This document shows, in pieces, positions 42,492 through 47,422 of a DNA stretch of 64,000 nt (position 1 is the first letter of the stretch; each line of letters begins with the position of its first letter). This stretch comes from Candidatus Nomurabacteria bacterium (lineage in GTDB: Bacteria > Patescibacteriota > Minisyncoccia > Phycocordibacterales > UBA9973). Below the pieces are notes generated by a model that was not told where the DNA came from, ran no database searches, and was given only the letters and a program-made list of their open reading frames with translations. The stretch spans positions 2,482-66,481 of the forward strand of contig CALQYS010000003.1 of the NCBI GenBank assembly GCA_943348755.1, given 5' to 3'. The translations under genes were made by a program, and so were the position numbers.

Positions 42492-42674
42492 TGCGGGGTT
42501 ATTAAACGAAGCTCGAACCTATTTTACTAAAAATTCGACAGAAGCATCAAATGTAAAAGCGGACTCGGTTTTGCGAAAGCATTTTTTGGGGAAAAGGATT
42601 TCGCAAAACCTCGGCTAATATTTTATTAAATTCGGCGAGATTGCCCGCAGAAGGGGTTTGGGGAGGAATGCGGG
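42492..42674. repeat. IR-L: 183-bp repeat unit, perfect inverted copy of 47240-47422
   Basis: The reverse complement of 42492-42674 is identical, base for base, to 47240-47422. It contains an internal 12-bp hairpin GGTTTTGCGAAA...TTTCGCAAAACC and a plausible outward-facing promoter, TTGATG, 18-nt spacer, TAAAAT, that would drive the HAD gene. Confidence 0.8.
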
Positions 42675-43148
42675 AAACCCAAAATTAAAAATGCTCGGTG
42701 CCTTCGTTCATCATATCATTGTGTTTGGTCTAAAGAAATACACCCTCGGCATCCGCCTCGGGAATTTCCGCTAGGGCTACGAGCGCCAGTTCTAGGATAT
42801 GGGAACGGCTCAAATACCGGGTAAATGAGCCGTTCCCATTTCTAGTTGGGGAGAGGATTCTCCTCTCCCCAGTGCGTTGCCTCGGTTCGTGCTCCTTTCA
42901 GTCGCATCCCGCCGAAGCGGGACAGGGCTCACCCCACCCGGCCGCACAAACCCCTCTCAGTTTTTTCAGTTCTCGTTTAGTGTGTAGCTTTTGCTTTCGA
43001 TTCAGTATTTCATACCACACAGGCGCTCGTCTTTAGCCCAGACACCCTAGCGGAAATTCCCGAAGGCGCAAAATGCATGTGCTTGACCCACCCTCCCGTT
43101 CGCGCACAAACTCGTTCGTTGAAACTAAAAGAAACTCACGAGACTCCC

Positions 43149-43736
43149 TTACATTCGGGAATACGAAACTCCTTTTCCAGTTCTTCCACTTTGTTTAATT
43201 TTTCCTTCCTTCTCCAAGATTGAAAGATACCGAGTTGCTGTTGCATCAGATACATGCAAATACTTTTCTACTTCGTCGTTTGTAAGTTTAGAGTGTTGTA
43301 AGAACAAAGACATAACCCTATCCAATTTTTTACGCTTTCGAAATTGAATTGTGTTTCGAGCAGAGATTAAAAGTTTTCGTGCGAGCGAAGATTTATTTTC
43401 CAACGGCTCATTTACTGGTATTTGAGCCGTTGGTTTATCCGCCTCAACGCTTTCAGCTTCGCCAGAGGAATAATCTTGGTTTTCAGGGGTTTTAGGCTCA
43501 TTTTCGGGTTGGCTTATTTCAGCATCTCCTTTGTTTATAGCACTATTATTACTTTCAGCACTAAAACCATCCCGGGGGGCTTCTGGGGCCTCAGGAGGCA
43601 TATTCGAGAGTTTAGAAGCCATTGTAGGGCTAGAATCCGAGGTGGGGATATCTTGGGTTGTATTTGGGTCGTCTGGCATATATTTTAATTTTCTAAAACT
43701 GACTTTCTCCCATCGTGGTATGAACAAGTGTTGCAA
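43149..43736 (-). CDS. Winged-HTH DNA-binding protein with a disordered Pro/Glu/Ser-rich N-terminal region
   Basis: 195 aa. The C-terminal LTNDEVEKYLHVSDATATRYLSILEKEGKIKQSG is HTH-like, and the N-terminal 130 aa are low-complexity. Confidence 0.4.
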   Translation of the reverse strand: MQHLFIPRWEKVSFRKLKYMPDDPNTTQDIPTSDSSPTMASKLSNMPPEAPEAPRDGFSAESNNSAINKGDAEISQPENEPKTPENQDYSSGEAESVEADKPTAQIPVNEPLENKSSLARKLLISARNTIQFRKRKKLDRVMSLFLQHSKLTNDEVEKYLHVSDATATRYLSILEKEGKIKQSGRTGKGVSYSRM

Positions 43737-44380: not shown

Positions 44381-44385
44381 AAAAT

Positions 44386-47256
44386 TTAATTTTCTATAAT
44401 CTTTATTTCTTCTTCATTTAAACCATAAAGTTTGAAGACTTCCTCATCAATTTTTTTATTGGTTTTTTCTATCTCAGATTTTAAACTTTCCCATTCGTTT
44501 GAGTTTTCTAGTATTTCGTGAAGTTCTTTATTGAGAGAAATCATTTTATCAACTAAAGTAGCAATTTCTTTTTGCTGTTCTTTGTTTCCGATATAAATTG
44601 GAATTTCTAAGAGAGGTCCTTTATCTACCTGTAAAAGATCGCCAAGCTGTTTCCCTTTATTTTTTAACCAAAAGAAAGATAATTTTGAGTTAAGTATCCC
44701 CGTAAGATATTTTAAATTTATTCTATCCGTTTTTATAAAATTTAAAGCGCGAGAACCATAATAGGGTTCTTCGGTATAAAAGAAACTTGGATAAGCTACT
44801 CTTACACCACAAACAACCTTAGGCCCTTGATTAAAAAAATATTCTTCTCTTTCTCTATGTAGATAAAAATAAGGTTTATTTGGGGTTCCATATTTTTCCT
44901 TAGCTTCTTTGAGAATTTCCTCAAACGGCTCAAAGTGTTTTTGGATATTTGGATAATCTTCGAGTTTTTTATCGCTAAAGTTTTTATCGCTAATGTAAAA
45001 AATATAATTTTCTGACTCTGCACCTATATATTTACCAGATGCAGTGAAAAATGGCTTCAAAAACTCTTGCTCGTCCTTACTATAAGAACTTATGTCCTTT
45101 TCAAGGAAATACTTATCAGGAGCCGCTACTATCCCTTGCCCAACCTCTTTTTCTGTTAATTCAAAATTTTTCTTGTTTTGTATTTTATCAAAAATGGAAC
45201 TAGATTCTTGATTAGAAAAAGTTATATTTTTATCAATCAACTTTTCTGGTTCAACCTCAATTTTGGCTTTCTCACTAAAGATATCTAGAATTAGTTTTTC
45301 TTCGCTAACATTTTTATCATTAATTCTTATGTAATCTATTTCATATTTTTTACTTGGTTTTTGTTTTTCAAATATATATATCATTGTTTGAATTCCAGCA
45401 TCTTGAAAAACCTTATAATCACCAAAATCAATAAAAGTTTTTAATTCTCCGTCTGTGAGAATTTTATTTCTCATAATACTTGCTCCTGCGTTAGTCACCC
45501 AGTTATTTGGAGCAATAAAACCCATTACTCCATTATCTTTTAGCAAATCTATTGAAATACAGGCAAACATTGTCCATAAATCCATTTTACCTTGATAGTA
45601 TGGACTTTCGTGCAAACCATCAAAAGCATCTTTATTTACAAATTCTTTTATATAAGGGGGGTTCCCAATAATTACATCAAAACCTCCTTGCTTAAATACT
45701 TCGCGAAATTCTTCTTTCCAATTAAAAGTAAGCGAATTTCCATTTTTTATATTATTATCCAACTTTGGTAAAGTTTCTTTTGAATCAAGCGAATTAATAA
45801 GTAAGTTTAGACGAGCTATTTCTACAGCTTGCATATCTAAATCAACCCCAAAAAGATTTTCTAAAATTATTTGTCTTTTCACAGAACCATCAACTCCAAA
45901 TTCTTTATACTTTTCAGCTATTGCTTCAAGCGCTCTAATAAGAAAAGACCCAGAACCACAAGCAGGATCTAATACTTTTATCTTTTTTAAATCAGCAATA
46001 CTTTTACAGTTATCCAAGACAGGCTTCAGTGCATTTTTAACAATATAGTCAACAACAAAAGTAGGGGTATAGAAAATTCCCTGTTCTTTTCTTTTCTTAA
46101 CATCTTTTTCAACATTTACGCCCTTTTTTGATTGAGTAAGCTTGTAATTTAGATAATTTTCATAGACAGTTCCCAAAACATCAGCGGGCATTTCTTTGAA
46201 ATTGTATTCATACTGGCCTTTCTTGCCATACAATTTATTTATCATATTTTCAAACCCCTTATCATCAATTATTTCCCAACTTTCAAAAGGATGAGGTGAA
46301 AAAAGATTAGAATTATAAATTTTATCTAATTCGCGAAAAATTACCGACATTGCTTGAAACGGCTTATAGCTTTTACTTTTTTCAGCTTCTCGGAGGAGAT
46401 TTTTTAGTATATTTGGTTCAACTTCTCTATCTTCCGCAACACGAAGAAAAATCAAACGGTCTAAAAGTTTTTGCACGCCTTCATCTATAATATCTTTTGA
46501 AAGATTCAATTTATCATTCCAACTTTTAAACTCGCTCGTTAGCCACTCTCGGCAATCTTGAATATCTTCATTTATTTTTTTGATAACAGTAGCGACCTGT
46601 ATTGATTTTTCTTTTTTGCCAATCTTTTCAGCATATTCATCTAAAGCTTTCTTTTGAAAAGATTCTTTTGATAGATACCACAGGGTTTCAAAATCAGAAA
46701 TATATTTATCATAAGAAAGCTCGAAAACAAGCTTATCCATCAAATCAGTTTTATCGATTCTCTGAGCATTAAACACTTTGACACCCTCAAAATCTGTTAA
46801 GAGCGCATAAGTTATGCCAGTATTCCATGAGTAATTTATCGTTTGGAAAGCAAATTTTTCGTTATCTAAGTCCTCGTTAAGTTTTTTAGATTCTAAATAA
46901 AATTGGGTTATTCCATTTATTTTAAATGTATGATCTGGACGACCAGAGCCTTTTATGTGGTCTTGTGAGGAAACTTCTTCTTTGTTTCTAATATCCCAAC
47001 CAAGTGTTTCAAAAAGAGGCAAAATAAAACCCTGAATTGTATCCTCTTCAGAATAAGTTTTTAGCTTGCCATCTTTTTTAATAACTTCGTATTTATCTAT
47101 CAGTTTTTGAATCTTTTGTTTTACAAATTCTTTGTCCATAAAATTATTCCAAAATCGGGCTAATTTCCAAAACCATACAATACCTTGAGATTTTTTGATT
47201 TTAGCACTTTTAAGGCATTTTTTCCACTCAAAAAACCCGCCCGCATTCCTCCCCAA
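44386..47256 (-). CDS. Fused type IIG-like restriction-modification enzyme (PD-ExK endonuclease, gamma-class N6-adenine methyltransferase and target-recognition domain)
   Basis: 956 aa. MTase motif I VLDPACGSGSFL and motif IV IIGNPPY. The N-terminal RPDHTF...(13 aa)...LESKK is PD-ExK-like. The likely true start is the internal MDKEFVKQ at about 47139, and the listed N-terminus runs into IR-R. Confidence 0.6.
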   Translation of the reverse strand: MGRNAGGFFEWKKCLKSAKIKKSQGIVWFWKLARFWNNFMDKEFVKQKIQKLIDKYEVIKKDGKLKTYSEEDTIQGFILPLFETLGWDIRNKEEVSSQDHIKGSGRPDHTFKINGITQFYLESKKLNEDLDNEKFAFQTINYSWNTGITYALLTDFEGVKVFNAQRIDKTDLMDKLVFELSYDKYISDFETLWYLSKESFQKKALDEYAEKIGKKEKSIQVATVIKKINEDIQDCREWLTSEFKSWNDKLNLSKDIIDEGVQKLLDRLIFLRVAEDREVEPNILKNLLREAEKSKSYKPFQAMSVIFRELDKIYNSNLFSPHPFESWEIIDDKGFENMINKLYGKKGQYEYNFKEMPADVLGTVYENYLNYKLTQSKKGVNVEKDVKKRKEQGIFYTPTFVVDYIVKNALKPVLDNCKSIADLKKIKVLDPACGSGSFLIRALEAIAEKYKEFGVDGSVKRQIILENLFGVDLDMQAVEIARLNLLINSLDSKETLPKLDNNIKNGNSLTFNWKEEFREVFKQGGFDVIIGNPPYIKEFVNKDAFDGLHESPYYQGKMDLWTMFACISIDLLKDNGVMGFIAPNNWVTNAGASIMRNKILTDGELKTFIDFGDYKVFQDAGIQTMIYIFEKQKPSKKYEIDYIRINDKNVSEEKLILDIFSEKAKIEVEPEKLIDKNITFSNQESSSIFDKIQNKKNFELTEKEVGQGIVAAPDKYFLEKDISSYSKDEQEFLKPFFTASGKYIGAESENYIFYISDKNFSDKKLEDYPNIQKHFEPFEEILKEAKEKYGTPNKPYFYLHREREEYFFNQGPKVVCGVRVAYPSFFYTEEPYYGSRALNFIKTDRINLKYLTGILNSKLSFFWLKNKGKQLGDLLQVDKGPLLEIPIYIGNKEQQKEIATLVDKMISLNKELHEILENSNEWESLKSEIEKTNKKIDEEVFKLYGLNEEEIKIIEN

Positions 47257-47422
47257 ACCCCTTCTGCGGGCAATCTCGCCGAATTTAATAAAATATTAGC
47301 CGAGGTTTTGCGAAATCCTTTTCCCCAAAAAATGCTTTCGCAAAACCGAGTCCGCTTTTACATTTGATGCTTCTGTCGAATTTTTAGTAAAATAGGTTCG
47401 AGCTTCGTTTAATAACCCCGCA
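47240..47422. repeat. IR-R: 183-bp perfect inverted copy of 42492-42674, immediately upstream of the RM gene
   Basis: Compared base by base with the reverse complement of IR-L and found identical. The identity stops exactly at CCCCGCA on the outer side. Confidence 0.8.

What the first reader, a model, noticed from the sequence alone, without database searches (positions are those of the whole stretch)
42492..47422. Perfect 183-bp inverted repeats bracket a 4.9-kb module carrying the type IIG RM enzyme, a Cas4-like nuclease and an HTH protein: a candidate invertible or mobile cassette
42492-42674 and 47240-47422 are base-for-base reverse complements. Perfect identity over 183 bp implies recent duplication or ongoing homogenisation. 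One copy abuts the HAD gene start and looks like its promoter/5' UTR (TTGATG, 18-nt spacer, TAAAAT facing outward). The other sits just upstream of the RM gene. A large serine recombinase is encoded 1.4 kb away. Inversion between the IRs would flip the whole RM/nuclease/HTH block relative to the outside promoters. That would be a possible phase-variation switch for a restriction system, driven by the serine recombinase or by homologous recombination. Alternatively these are terminal IRs of a transposable unit.
Basis: partly seen in the sequence, partly recalled or inferred. Interest (0 to 1): 0.8.

Follow-up and report, generated by a model that had tools for sequence, protein, structure and literature searches.

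The report
Inverted-repeat-bracketed defence cassette on recombinase island
The perfect 183-bp inverted repeats are real and mark the cargo slot of a mobile island inserted next to a tRNA gene, a design found in many CPR bacteria with different defence genes; the slot can probably flip, but flipping should not switch the restriction enzyme on or off.

Summary
42492-42674 and 47240-47422 are exact reverse complements, 183 nt, with sharp edges. An independent MEGAHIT assembly breaks exactly inside them.

The repeat is neither a private duplication nor a MITE. It belongs to a conserved module ("a") found in about 14 CPR/Patescibacteria genomes. There it occurs as near-perfect inverted pairs (99-100% within a genome, 71-89% between genomes). 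The pairs bracket different cargo in each genome, mostly defence genes, next to a tRNA-targeting large serine recombinase (LSR).

A related genome has the empty site: tRNA-Asp, 70 nt, then HAD. So window 42491-50428 is a 7.9-kb island. IR-L is the island's distal terminus, not the native HAD promoter.

The conserved backbone is: a, then a cargo promoter, the cargo, a wHTH gene, a roughly 470-nt structured non-coding block G, then a*.

Cargo orientation relative to the LSR differs between genomes: four in one state, two in the other. That fits inversion and concerted evolution of the arms.

The conserved cargo promoter lies inside the repeats. Both arms give identical upstream sequence. An ON/OFF phase switch of the RM enzyme is therefore unlikely.

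The resident LSR may not be the cognate enzyme, because the island is a mosaic. Population-level inversion remains untested.

The parts
50429..50503 (-). tRNA-Asp(GTC). This is the integration target and the proximal island boundary (attL-like). Its 3' end overlaps the last 40 nt of the LSR ORF.
   Evidence: The same LSR-3'-end/tRNA-3'-end arrangement is seen with many other tRNAs in the family. Empty site in L105.
48852..50468 (+). Large serine recombinase, 538 aa, with Resolvase, Recombinase and Zn_ribbon_recom domains. The N-terminal YARKS motif is intact.
   Evidence: An 84%-identical gene sits at the same tRNA-Asp in a related species with different island content.
47656..48831 (-). 391-aa protein with an N-terminal SEC-C zinc motif and no known function. 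It lies between the LSR and the cassette and is not conserved in related islands.
47423..47655 (.). Flank F, the 'b' remnant. It is homologous to the region at or just past the 3' end of a different LSR subfamily. It is also conserved next to 'a' in L009 and L017, and it abuts tRNA-Asp in L021.
47240..47422 (-). IR-R, the internal copy of module 'a' (reads inward on the minus strand). It contains the outward promoter-like site at 47364-47393 (+), the 44-bp dyad at 47304-47347 and hairpin 2 at 47240-47270.
47198..47226 (-). Promoter-like block for the cargo operon: TGGAAA, 17 nt, TG-extended TAAAAT. It lies inside the repeat-bracketed segment and is conserved in other islands.
   Evidence: It is a consensus match plus conservation, not an experimental result.
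44386..47139 (-). Type IIG restriction-modification enzyme, 917 aa from the ATG at 47139. This is variable cargo with low GC (about 30%).
43685..44380 (-). Cas4-like PD-(D/E)XK nuclease, 231 aa. This is variable cargo.
43149..43679 (-). wHTH protein, 176 aa. It is a backbone gene: homologs sit directly before block G in L009, L017, L075, L082, L072, L110 and L113. The family has 1535 homologs at E<=1e-10.
42675..43148 (-). Block G, a GC-rich (52%) conserved structured non-coding region. A compound long-range helix of about 34 pairs closes a domain of about 320 nt with several hairpins.
   Evidence: No Rfam family matches.
42492..42674 (+). IR-L, the terminal copy of module 'a' (attR-like island end). 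It contains the outward promoter-like site 42550..42521 (-) facing HAD, the dyad at 42567-42610 and hairpin 2 at 42644-42674.
41876..42490 (-). HAD hydrolase, a host core gene. Its native upstream neighbour in a relative is tRNA-Asp. Here the island separates them.

Best explanation
The two 183-bp arms are two copies of a conserved module ('a'). The module belongs to a family of tRNA-integrating LSR islands in CPR bacteria.

Window 42491-50428 is one such island, inserted between tRNA-Asp and the host HAD gene. Read from the tRNA, its order is: tRNA-Asp | LSR | SEC-C gene | F | a | cargo promoter, RM, Cas4-like, wHTH | G | a* | HAD.

IR-L is the island's distal terminus. It carries an outward promoter-like site that now sits in front of HAD. 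IR-R is an internal inverted copy joined to F, a remnant of another LSR's 3' end. That junction looks like a fossil attP-type junction. Together the arms bracket a cargo slot that holds different, mostly defence, genes in different genomes.

The arms stay identical within a genome while the module diverges between genomes. This implies ongoing recombination or gene conversion between them. The most likely route is RecA-type homologous recombination over 183 bp. An inevitable product is inversion of the 4.6-kb segment.

Inversion changes which outside neighbour receives read-through from the cargo/G end. It does not switch the RM operon, because that operon carries its own conserved promoter inside the segment.

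Shown: the repeat, its family, the LSR/tRNA linkage, the empty site, variable cargo, both orientations across genomes, and covariation in the hairpins.

Inferred: the recombination mechanism, promoter activity, the origin of the internal copy, and tandem accretion of two islands.
For: - The repeat is exact and independently assembled.
- The 44-bp dyad core occurs in 17 loci of about 14 CPR MAGs. About 0.004 matches are expected by chance (my own calculation from the 24 specified bases and the size of the collection). IMG/VR has none.
- Inverted pairs occur elsewhere. L008: 265 nt, 100%. JBBTUE: 192 nt, 1 mismatch. CAZIZK: 291 nt, 1 mismatch. ELA641: 189 nt, 98.9%. L023: at least 109 nt, 100%. 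L087: 127 nt, 100%. L097: 92 nt, 100%. L110: at least 122 nt, 100%. The backbone is only 71-89% identical between genomes.
- An LSR homolog lies just outside one arm and is divergently transcribed.
- The LSR 3' end abuts a convergent tRNA 3' end in many loci.
- Empty site: L105 has tRNA-Asp, 70 nt, then HAD in conserved synteny.
- The family is mobile: L110 and L111 carry the same island at 99.65% identity, at tRNA-Arg(CCT) and tRNA-Arg(TCT).
- Cargo differs in every genome and is largely defence-related.
- Orientation of cargo relative to the LSR: the window, L008, CAZIZK and L103 are in one state; JBBTUE and L075 are in the flipped state.
- The outer edge of 'a' is the same nucleotide against three different flanks, in the window, ELA641 and L021.
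- The cargo promoter block inside the arms is conserved.
Against: - No read-level evidence shows that the window's segment inverts. The orientation in the window is one assembler's resolution.
- The orientation tally (4 versus 2) comes from different genomes with different cargo. It shows flipping over evolutionary time, not switching.
- The origin of the internal copy is unexplained. Conservative site-specific recombination does not duplicate sequence.
- Most close LSR homologs have no such repeats, so the repeat module is not a general property of the LSR family.
- The 70-nt tRNA-Asp-to-HAD spacer of the relative is absent in the window, so the exact junction history is uncertain.
- Promoters are consensus matches only. 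The number found in the region is no higher than in shuffled sequence.
Confidence: 0.55

Rival explanations
1. Programmed site-specific inversion. A serine recombinase (the resident LSR or a cognate one) recombines the two 44-bp dyad sites at the centre of the arms. The long identical flanks would be maintained by associated gene conversion, as with FLP/FRT inside the 599-bp repeats of the yeast 2-micron plasmid (recalled from textbook knowledge, not checked here). The flip would have a regulatory or copy-number role.
For: The dyad is the most conserved part of 'a'. It keeps its two-fold symmetry through fully compensated changes: L075 has AGAAAAGCGGAA/TTCCGCTTTTCT and L087 has GGTTTTGCCAAA/TTTGGCAAAACC. 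Its 44-bp size and non-palindromic centre suit a serine-recombinase site (established knowledge). The LSR is the only protein type shared by islands carrying 'a'. Both orientations exist.
Against: Canonical LSRs recombine attP with attB, not two identical sites (established knowledge). The element junctions map to the outer edge of 'a', 75 nt from the dyad. The window's flank F matches a different LSR subfamily, and the resident LSR's closest relative carries no 'a' or G. The cargo promoter is inside the segment. The dyad covariation fits an RNA or ssDNA hairpin equally well.
Confidence: 0.17
2. The arms are the terminal inverted repeats of a non-autonomous cassette (a, cargo, G, a*). An island recombinase would move or exchange this cassette in trans. 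That would explain conserved arms with ever-changing cargo, a natural form of recombinase-mediated cassette exchange. The identity of the arms would be regenerated at each move.
For: Both outer edges of 'a' are sharp and conserved against different flanks. Cargo is different in every island while a, the cargo promoter and G are conserved. The backbone occurs with LSRs only 27-68% identical to each other and in distant CPR lineages.
Against: There is no target-site duplication and no transposase inside. No cassette was found away from an LSR/tRNA island. Only one pair occurs per genome. Exchange by ordinary homologous recombination in the conserved backbone explains the cargo turnover without any special mechanism. 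L110 and L111 show the whole island moving, not the cassette alone.
Confidence: 0.15
3. The arms act at the RNA level. A transcript running from IR-R through the operon and G to IR-L would form a 183-bp perfect duplex. Alternatively G plus a* is a large structured RNA that regulates or protects the operon or the downstream gene. In this reading the DNA repeat is a by-product of an RNA need.
For: Hairpins in 'a' and in G show compensatory changes. G-U pairs are more frequent on the cargo-sense strand: 65 G-U against 9 A-C there, versus 39 and 13 on the other strand. The window's G+a* folds at -249 kcal/mol, z = -6.3.
Against: There are no transcript data. A terminator-like hairpin plus T-run lies between IR-R and the cargo promoter, so IR-R may not be part of the operon transcript. 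Complementarity of repeat arms can also be kept by DNA-level gene conversion. In the flipped islands the same arms persist.
Confidence: 0.08
4. Assembly artefact. A collapsed or chimeric repeat would have created a false inverted duplication.
For: The source is a metagenome assembly. The orientation of the middle segment is not resolved by the k=141 graph.
Against: Two independent assemblies agree on every base of both junction sets up to 141 nt. The same architecture recurs in at least 9 unrelated MAGs and contigs from different projects and assemblers.
Confidence: 0.03

Closest known systems
Tycheposon-type, tRNA-targeting cargo islands (Prochlorococcus; bioRxiv 10.1101/2020.12.28.424599, read)
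   Same: A recombinase gene sits next to a tRNA. Integration is at the tRNA 3' end. Cargo is variable and includes defence genes. Newer elements push older remnants away from the tRNA, which fits the mosaic seen here: LSR + SEC-C are proximal, while F plus the cassette are distal. Some members have a replication module (L027 has a Prim-Pol/helicase).
   Different: Most tycheposons use tyrosine recombinases and are flanked by direct partial-tRNA repeats. The search of that paper shows no long perfect inverted repeats bracketing the cargo and no conserved structured non-coding block. Here the hosts are CPR bacteria, the recombinase is an LSR, and no partial tRNA-Asp repeat exists in the window.
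Serine-invertase switches (Hin, Gin, Cin, Pin); recalled from textbook knowledge, not checked here
   Same: The recombinase gene lies just outside a segment bounded by inverted repeats. In phage P1 the repeats reach about 0.6 kb.
   Different: Those enzymes are small invertases of about 190 aa that need an enhancer and Fis. The flip swaps coding ends or a promoter. Here the enzyme is a 538-aa integrase-type LSR at a tRNA, the cargo is a complete operon with its own promoter, and there are no alternative gene ends.
Epigenetic invertons / phase-variable Type I RM hsdS shufflons (PMC7672463, PMC7394358; titles and abstracts seen)
   Same: Inverted repeats are associated with an RM system and a nearby recombinase.
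   Different: There the repeats lie inside hsdS coding sequences and recombination reshuffles specificity domains. Here the repeats are intergenic, the enzyme is a single-chain type IIG, and there is no duplicated specificity module and no SSR.
Yeast 2-micron plasmid FLP/FRT flip-flop; recalled from textbook knowledge, not checked here
   Same: Long perfect inverted repeats have a short dyad recombination site in their middle. The arms are kept identical. Inversion has no ON/OFF effect on the genes in between.
   Different: FLP is a tyrosine recombinase on a eukaryotic plasmid, and inversion serves copy-number amplification. Nothing here shows that the dyad is a recombination site.
SCCmec / Enterococcus cassette chromosome (LSR-mobilised cassettes; PMC6222049, listed)
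   Same: LSR-driven, site-specific chromosomal cassette with variable accessory cargo, including RM systems.
   Different: SCC elements integrate at rlmH, not at tRNAs. They have short terminal repeats and lack the a/G backbone.

Membership tests
tRNA-integrating LSR genomic island | Encodes a large serine recombinase with catalytic, recombinase and zinc-ribbon domains | tested here: met
   PF00239, PF07508 and PF13408. The protein is 538 aa and the N-terminal catalytic Ser motif is conserved in alignment A1.
tRNA-integrating LSR genomic island | Sits at the 3' end of a tRNA gene | tested here: met
   The LSR ORF overlaps tRNA-Asp by 40 nt. The same arrangement occurs with 8 or more other tRNA species in homologous loci.
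tRNA-integrating LSR genomic island | A related genome has the uninterrupted (empty) site | tested here: met
   L105 has GatC-GatA-P210-tRNA-Met x2-tRNA-Asp, then 70 nt, then HAD. L107 shows other content in the same slot.
tRNA-integrating LSR genomic island | Evidence of recent mobility (the same element at different sites) | tested here: inconclusive
   Met for a family member: L110 and L111 are 99.65% identical at two different tRNA-Arg genes. Not shown for the window's own island. All other copies found are the same locus.
Site-specific invertible segment (phase-variation switch) | Inverted repeats flank the segment | tested here: met
Site-specific invertible segment (phase-variation switch) | Both orientations coexist in one clonal population | not testable with these tools
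   No reads are available. k=141 and k=31 contigs cannot span 183 nt. Across genomes both orientations occur.
Site-specific invertible segment (phase-variation switch) | Inversion connects or disconnects a promoter, or swaps coding ends | tested here: not met
   The conserved promoter block lies inside the segment. The arms are identical. No ORF crosses the arms apart from a mechanical TTG extension.
Site-specific invertible segment (phase-variation switch) | Dedicated invertase-type recombinase | tested here: inconclusive
   The only recombinase is an integrase-type LSR. Flank F points to a different LSR subfamily as the original partner.
Phase-variable RM system (phasevarion / hsdS inverton) | Repeats inside specificity genes, or an SSR tract in the mod/RM gene | tested here: not met
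   There are no internal repeats of 30 nt or more in 44386-47139. There is no SSR tract.
MITE / TIR transposon | Many dispersed copies, target-site duplication, or an internal transposase | tested here: not met
   There are two copies in 64 kb and at most one pair per GTDB genome. The flanks ATCATC| and |AGAACT show no duplication. No transposase domain is present. The source genome as a whole could not be scanned.
Known structured RNA family (Rfam 15) | Match to a curated covariance model | tested here: not met
   Nothing meaningful at E<=1 for the window's a/G/F or for L008's G+a*.

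The most novel reading that the evidence does not exclude
CPR bacteria may carry a previously undescribed class of LSR islands with a dedicated, invertible or exchangeable cargo slot. The slot is defined by long, self-homogenising inverted repeats, each with a covariation-supported 44-bp dyad. 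The slot is coupled to a new large structured RNA of about 450-800 nt (G plus a*). That RNA would take part in recombination control or in cargo/defence expression. In this reading the repeats and the RNA are functional parts of a natural cassette-exchange machine rather than by-products.
Probability: 0.2. Interest if true: 0.85.

Novelty: new variant of a known kind. Interest (0 to 1): 0.6.

Why it matters
CPR/Patescibacteria have tiny genomes and are almost uncultured, and their mobile elements and defence-gene traffic are poorly described.

This locus exposes a recurring design. A tRNA-targeting LSR island has its defence cargo in a slot bracketed by near-perfect inverted repeats. The slot is followed by a conserved wHTH gene and a large structured non-coding block that matches no Rfam family.

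If the arms drive flipping or cassette exchange, that would explain how very different defence systems are swapped on one conserved backbone across distant CPR lineages. These systems include type IIG RM, DpnII RM with AAA_13, an OLD-family nuclease and an ADP-ribosyltransferase.

It would also supply new LSR/att pairs and possibly a new large RNA for study.

For annotation, the result warns against two errors: reading such repeats as host promoters, and reading them as RM phase switches.

Tried and rejected
- Rfam at gathering and E<=1 thresholds on the window's a, G and F and on L008's G+a*: nothing meaningful.
- Dyad pattern against IMG/VR: no match, so there is no evidence for a phage origin.
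- Partial tRNA-Asp repeat in the window as a tyrosine-type att duplicate: none found. L021 does have one.
- Second inverted repeat around the LSR in the window, as in CAZIZK, L103 and L110: none found.
- Homology between flank F and the resident LSR's 3' end: none. F matches other LSR subfamilies instead.
- The idea that 'a' is a tRNA or tmRNA fragment: ARAGORN and Rfam are negative, and the resemblance of the outer end to the tRNA-Asp 3' end is short.
- SEC-C protein as a conserved island component: no homologs in related loci.
- Close LSR homologs from JGI metagenomes: most have no repeats or dyad, so the LSR alone does not predict the repeat module.
- Literature: no paper in the library combines CPR, serine recombinase and inverted repeats.
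- I could not derive, from conservative recombination alone, how the internal copy of 'a' arose. Several inversion and tandem-integration schemes were worked through and none reproduces the duplication.
- The organism's name could not be recovered.

Full report
**Observation.**
The arms 42492-42674 and 47240-47422 are exact reverse complements over 183 nt. Identity ends abruptly on all four sides. No third copy exists in the 64-kb window.

- HAD hydrolase, 41876-42490 (-). Its ATG is 1 nt from IR-L.
- A wHTH protein, 43149-43679 (-).
- A Cas4-like PD-(D/E)XK nuclease, 43685-44380 (-).
- A type IIG RM enzyme. Its real start is most likely the ATG at 47139, 100 nt inside IR-R.
- A 391-aa SEC-C-motif protein, 47656-48831 (-).
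- A 538-aa large serine recombinase (LSR), 48852-50468 (+).

The LSR's last 40 nt overlap the 3' end of tRNA-Asp at 50429-50503 (-). The outward TTGATG-18-TAAAAT site is present in both arms.

An independent MEGAHIT k=141 assembly (ENA ERZ27280317) splits the locus into three contigs, all 100% identical to the window. Each stops exactly 141 nt into an arm, and the middle contig is 4847 nt = 4565 + 2x141. The repeat is therefore real in the read graph. That assembly cannot tell the orientation of the middle segment.

**The repeat belongs to a family.**
The centre of each arm is a 44-bp dyad, GGTTTTGCGAAA-N20-TTTCGCAAAACC. An exact scan of one genome per GTDB species found it in 17 loci of about 14 MAGs. 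All are CPR/Patescibacteria: Nomurabacteria, Paceibacterota, Saccharibacteria, Magasanikiibacteriota and Zambryskibacteria. About 0.004 matches would be expected by chance (my own calculation). IMG/VR has none.

Conservation extends over the whole arm and beyond it. In other genomes the module again occurs as inverted pairs 1.7-7.6 kb apart:

| Locus | Arm length | Identity |
|---|---|---|
| L008 | 265 nt | 100% |
| JBBTUE | 192 nt | 1 mismatch |
| CAZIZK | 291 nt | 1 mismatch |
| ELA641 | 189 nt | 98.9% |
| L023 | at least 109 nt | 100% |
| L087 | 127 nt | 100% |
| L097 | 92 nt | 100% |
| L110 | at least 122 nt | 100% |

Two pairs are decayed: L103 at 91% and L018 at 92%. No genome showed more than two copies, so this is not a MITE-like dispersed repeat. 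Between genomes the same sequence is only 71-89% identical. Arms that are identical within a genome but diverged between genomes are the signature of concerted evolution.

**Linkage to an LSR and to tRNAs.**
An LSR homolog, 27-68% identical to the window's, lies just outside one arm and is divergently transcribed in L008, L019, CAZIZK and JBBTUE. More distant LSRs lie next to the dyad in L020 and L022.

A metagenome scan with an LSR alignment returned 80 loci. In many of them the LSR's 3' end abuts the 3' end of a convergent tRNA: Gln, Thr, Val, Ser, Asp, His, Asn or Glu. This is a tRNA-targeting integrase family.

Most close LSR homologs carry no repeats. About 15 have a second kind of inverted pair ('b'). 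One b arm lies on the LSR 3' end next to the tRNA and the other lies upstream of the LSR. CAZIZK, L103, L087, L093 and L110 have both kinds of pair.

**The window's block is an inserted island.**
HAD is a core gene with hundreds of orthologs. In a relative (L105, HAD 74% identical) the synteny GatC-GatA-P210-tRNA-Met-tRNA-Met-tRNA-Asp is followed, after 70 nt, directly by HAD.

Hence window 42491-50428 (7.9 kb) is an insertion between tRNA-Asp and HAD. IR-L's outer edge is the distal end of that island. The outer edge of 'a' is the same nucleotide (TGCGGGG...) against three different flanks, in the window, ELA641 and L021. That marks it as a site-specific junction.

IR-L is therefore not the native HAD promoter. 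It is island DNA carrying an outward-facing promoter-like site. The L008-type arms carry a near-consensus TTGGAA-18-TATAAT site at the same place, read by eye from the alignment and not scored by any tool.

The family is recently mobile. L110 and L111 carry the same island at 99.65% identity next to tRNA-Arg(CCT) and tRNA-Arg(TCT), with unrelated host flanks.

**Backbone and cargo.**
Comparison of islands gives this conserved order, read from the tRNA:
- tRNA | (b) LSR (b*)
- a
- a T-run
- a promoter block, TGGAAA-17-TGCTAAAAT
- variable cargo
- often the wHTH gene
- block G
- a* | host

The promoter block is conserved in the window, L008, L016, JBBTUE, CAZIZK and L009.

Cargo differs in every island and is mostly defence or conflict genes:
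- L023: DpnII RM plus AAA_13.
- JBBTUE: OLD-family ATPase/TOPRIM.
- L008: an ART-PolyVal protein.
- CAZIZK: DUF6119.
- L110 and L113: C-protein/REase/MTase systems.

The wHTH protein has homologs directly before G in L009, L017, L075, L082, L072, L110 and L113. Its family has 1535 members at E<=1e-10. In the window, then, only the RM enzyme and the Cas4-like nuclease are cargo. The wHTH gene and G belong to the backbone.

**Is it invertible?**
Relative to the LSR, the cargo start lies next to the LSR-side arm in the window, L008, CAZIZK and L103. G lies next to the LSR-side arm in JBBTUE and L075. The segment has therefore flipped during the family's history.

With 183 bp of perfect identity, homologous recombination alone would invert the segment and keep the arms identical. 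This mechanism is inferred, not shown.

A programmed switch of the RM enzyme is unlikely for three reasons:
- The operon's conserved promoter block is inside the arms.
- The arms give identical upstream sequence in either state.
- The RM gene has neither an SSR tract nor duplicated specificity modules.

What would change on flipping is only which outside neighbour, HAD or F/LSR, lies downstream of the cargo/G end.

**Which recombinase?**
The dyad and a second hairpin inside 'a' are supported by compensatory changes:
- 98.5% of cells are paired.
- 10 of 19 pairs have double changes.
- 0 of 500 shuffles reach the observed values.
- The two sequences not selected through the dyad, L075 and L087, are fully compensated.

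This fits a symmetric protein site, an RNA hairpin or an ssDNA hairpin equally well. The element junctions lie at the outer edge of 'a', not at the dyad.

Flank F (47423-47655) is homologous to the 'b' arms at the 3' ends of a different LSR subfamily (L087, L086, L078, L100). It is not homologous to the resident LSR's own 3' end.

The resident LSR's closest relative is 84% identical at the nucleotide level and sits at the same tRNA-Asp. It carries entirely different genes and no a or G.

The window's island thus looks like a mosaic. A newer LSR + SEC-C element lies next to the tRNA. An older F-a-cargo-G-a* remnant has been pushed distally. The tycheposon accretion model describes this pattern. 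The neighbouring LSR may therefore not be the cognate enzyme.

**Block G.**
Region 42675-43148 is 52% GC in a 38% GC window. It is conserved in at least 10 islands.

A compound long-range helix of about 34 pairs closes a domain of about 320 nt with several hairpins:
- 63 predicted pairs are 93.7% paired.
- 16 pairs have double changes.
- 0 of 500 shuffles reach this on four of the five measures; the count of further pair types was reached by 95 of 500 shuffles and is not significant.

G-U pairs favour the cargo-sense strand. The window's G+a* folds at -249 kcal/mol, z = -6.3. No Rfam family matches.

Because repeat arms in this family are homogenised at the DNA level, some of this covariation could come from DNA-level events. 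The function of G is unknown.

**Verdict.**
The 'phase-variation switch of the RM enzyme' and the 'HAD promoter' readings are not supported.

The closest known kinds are tRNA-targeting cargo islands (tycheposon-like, SCC-like). The closest mechanistic analogies are invertase-adjacent segments and the 2-micron flip-flop.

What appears undescribed is the repeat-bracketed cargo slot with its structured backbone in CPR bacteria. No paper in the library combines CPR, serine recombinase and inverted repeats. I rate it a new variant of a known kind. Read-level proof of inversion and any function for the dyad and G remain open.

Noticed in passing
window 42675-43148 (minus strand); also L008 4866-5401, L012 1140-1589, L015 807-1256, L023 5100-5546, L075 7800-8301: A conserved GC-rich non-coding block of about 450-530 nt ('G') with a long-range helix and covarying hairpins. 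It matches no Rfam family and is a candidate new large structured RNA or DNA element of CPR islands.
   Followed up: partly
window 42795-42818 (+), 42820-42842 (rc), 43417-43440 (rc, inside the wHTH ORF): A 24-nt motif, GGATATGGGAACGGCTCAAATACC, occurs three times: as a tight hairpin in G and once inside the wHTH coding region. It is 90-97% conserved in L009 and L017, more than its surroundings. It may be a protein-binding site.
   Followed up: no
L114 10835-11164 versus L115 10838-11215: Two strains 98% identical up to a point inside the long-range helix arm of G then diverge. L115 continues with G forward and then a*. L114 continues with an inverted G copy and host genes. Both have an IS110-family transposase inserted in the 5' part of G. 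Recombination seems to occur at G's internal inverted repeat.
   Followed up: partly
L110 versus L111, positions 1416-1488 and 1462-9961: The same island (99.65% identical) sits at tRNA-Arg(CCT) in one sample and tRNA-Arg(TCT) in another. The shared sequence starts inside the tRNA. This suggests the island supplies the tRNA 3' part and can use related tRNAs.
   Followed up: partly
L024+L015 (CAZIZK010000002.1), merged coordinates 3922-4036 and 5509-5623: A second perfect 115-nt inverted repeat brackets the LSR gene itself. One arm abuts tRNA-Glu and the other abuts the outer edge of 'a'. Similar 88-97% pairs occur in about 15 metagenome loci. The LSR module may flip as well.
   Followed up: partly
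L021 1003-1722: A related Nomurabacteria genome has a decayed remnant at the same tRNA-Asp: a 20-nt partial tRNA-Asp repeat, 183 nt, one 'a' copy, the first 113 nt of G, F in the opposite orientation, then tRNA-Asp. It has no LSR and no cargo.
   Followed up: partly
window 47656-48831 (-): A 391-aa protein with only an N-terminal SEC-C zinc motif and weak PADLOC candidate hits. Its function is unknown and it is not found in the related islands examined.
   Followed up: no
L027 58-2094 and 4025-4690: A close relative (P210 81% identical) has a 54%-identical LSR preceded by a 678-aa protein that I read from its sequence as a Prim-Pol/helicase-type replication protein (not run against any library). 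It has no inverted repeats. I read the 221-aa ORF between the LSR and tRNA-Met as a LAGLIDADG-type endonuclease (also by eye), at the place where tRNA-Asp would be expected; ARAGORN found no tRNA-Asp there.
   Followed up: no
window 17065-18613 (-): A complete 16S rRNA gene, but no 23S or 5S rRNA was reported anywhere in the 64-kb window. The rRNA genes appear to be unlinked.
   Followed up: no
window 44386-47139: The RM gene is about 28-32% GC against 38% for the window. This is consistent with recent horizontal acquisition of the cargo.
   Followed up: no
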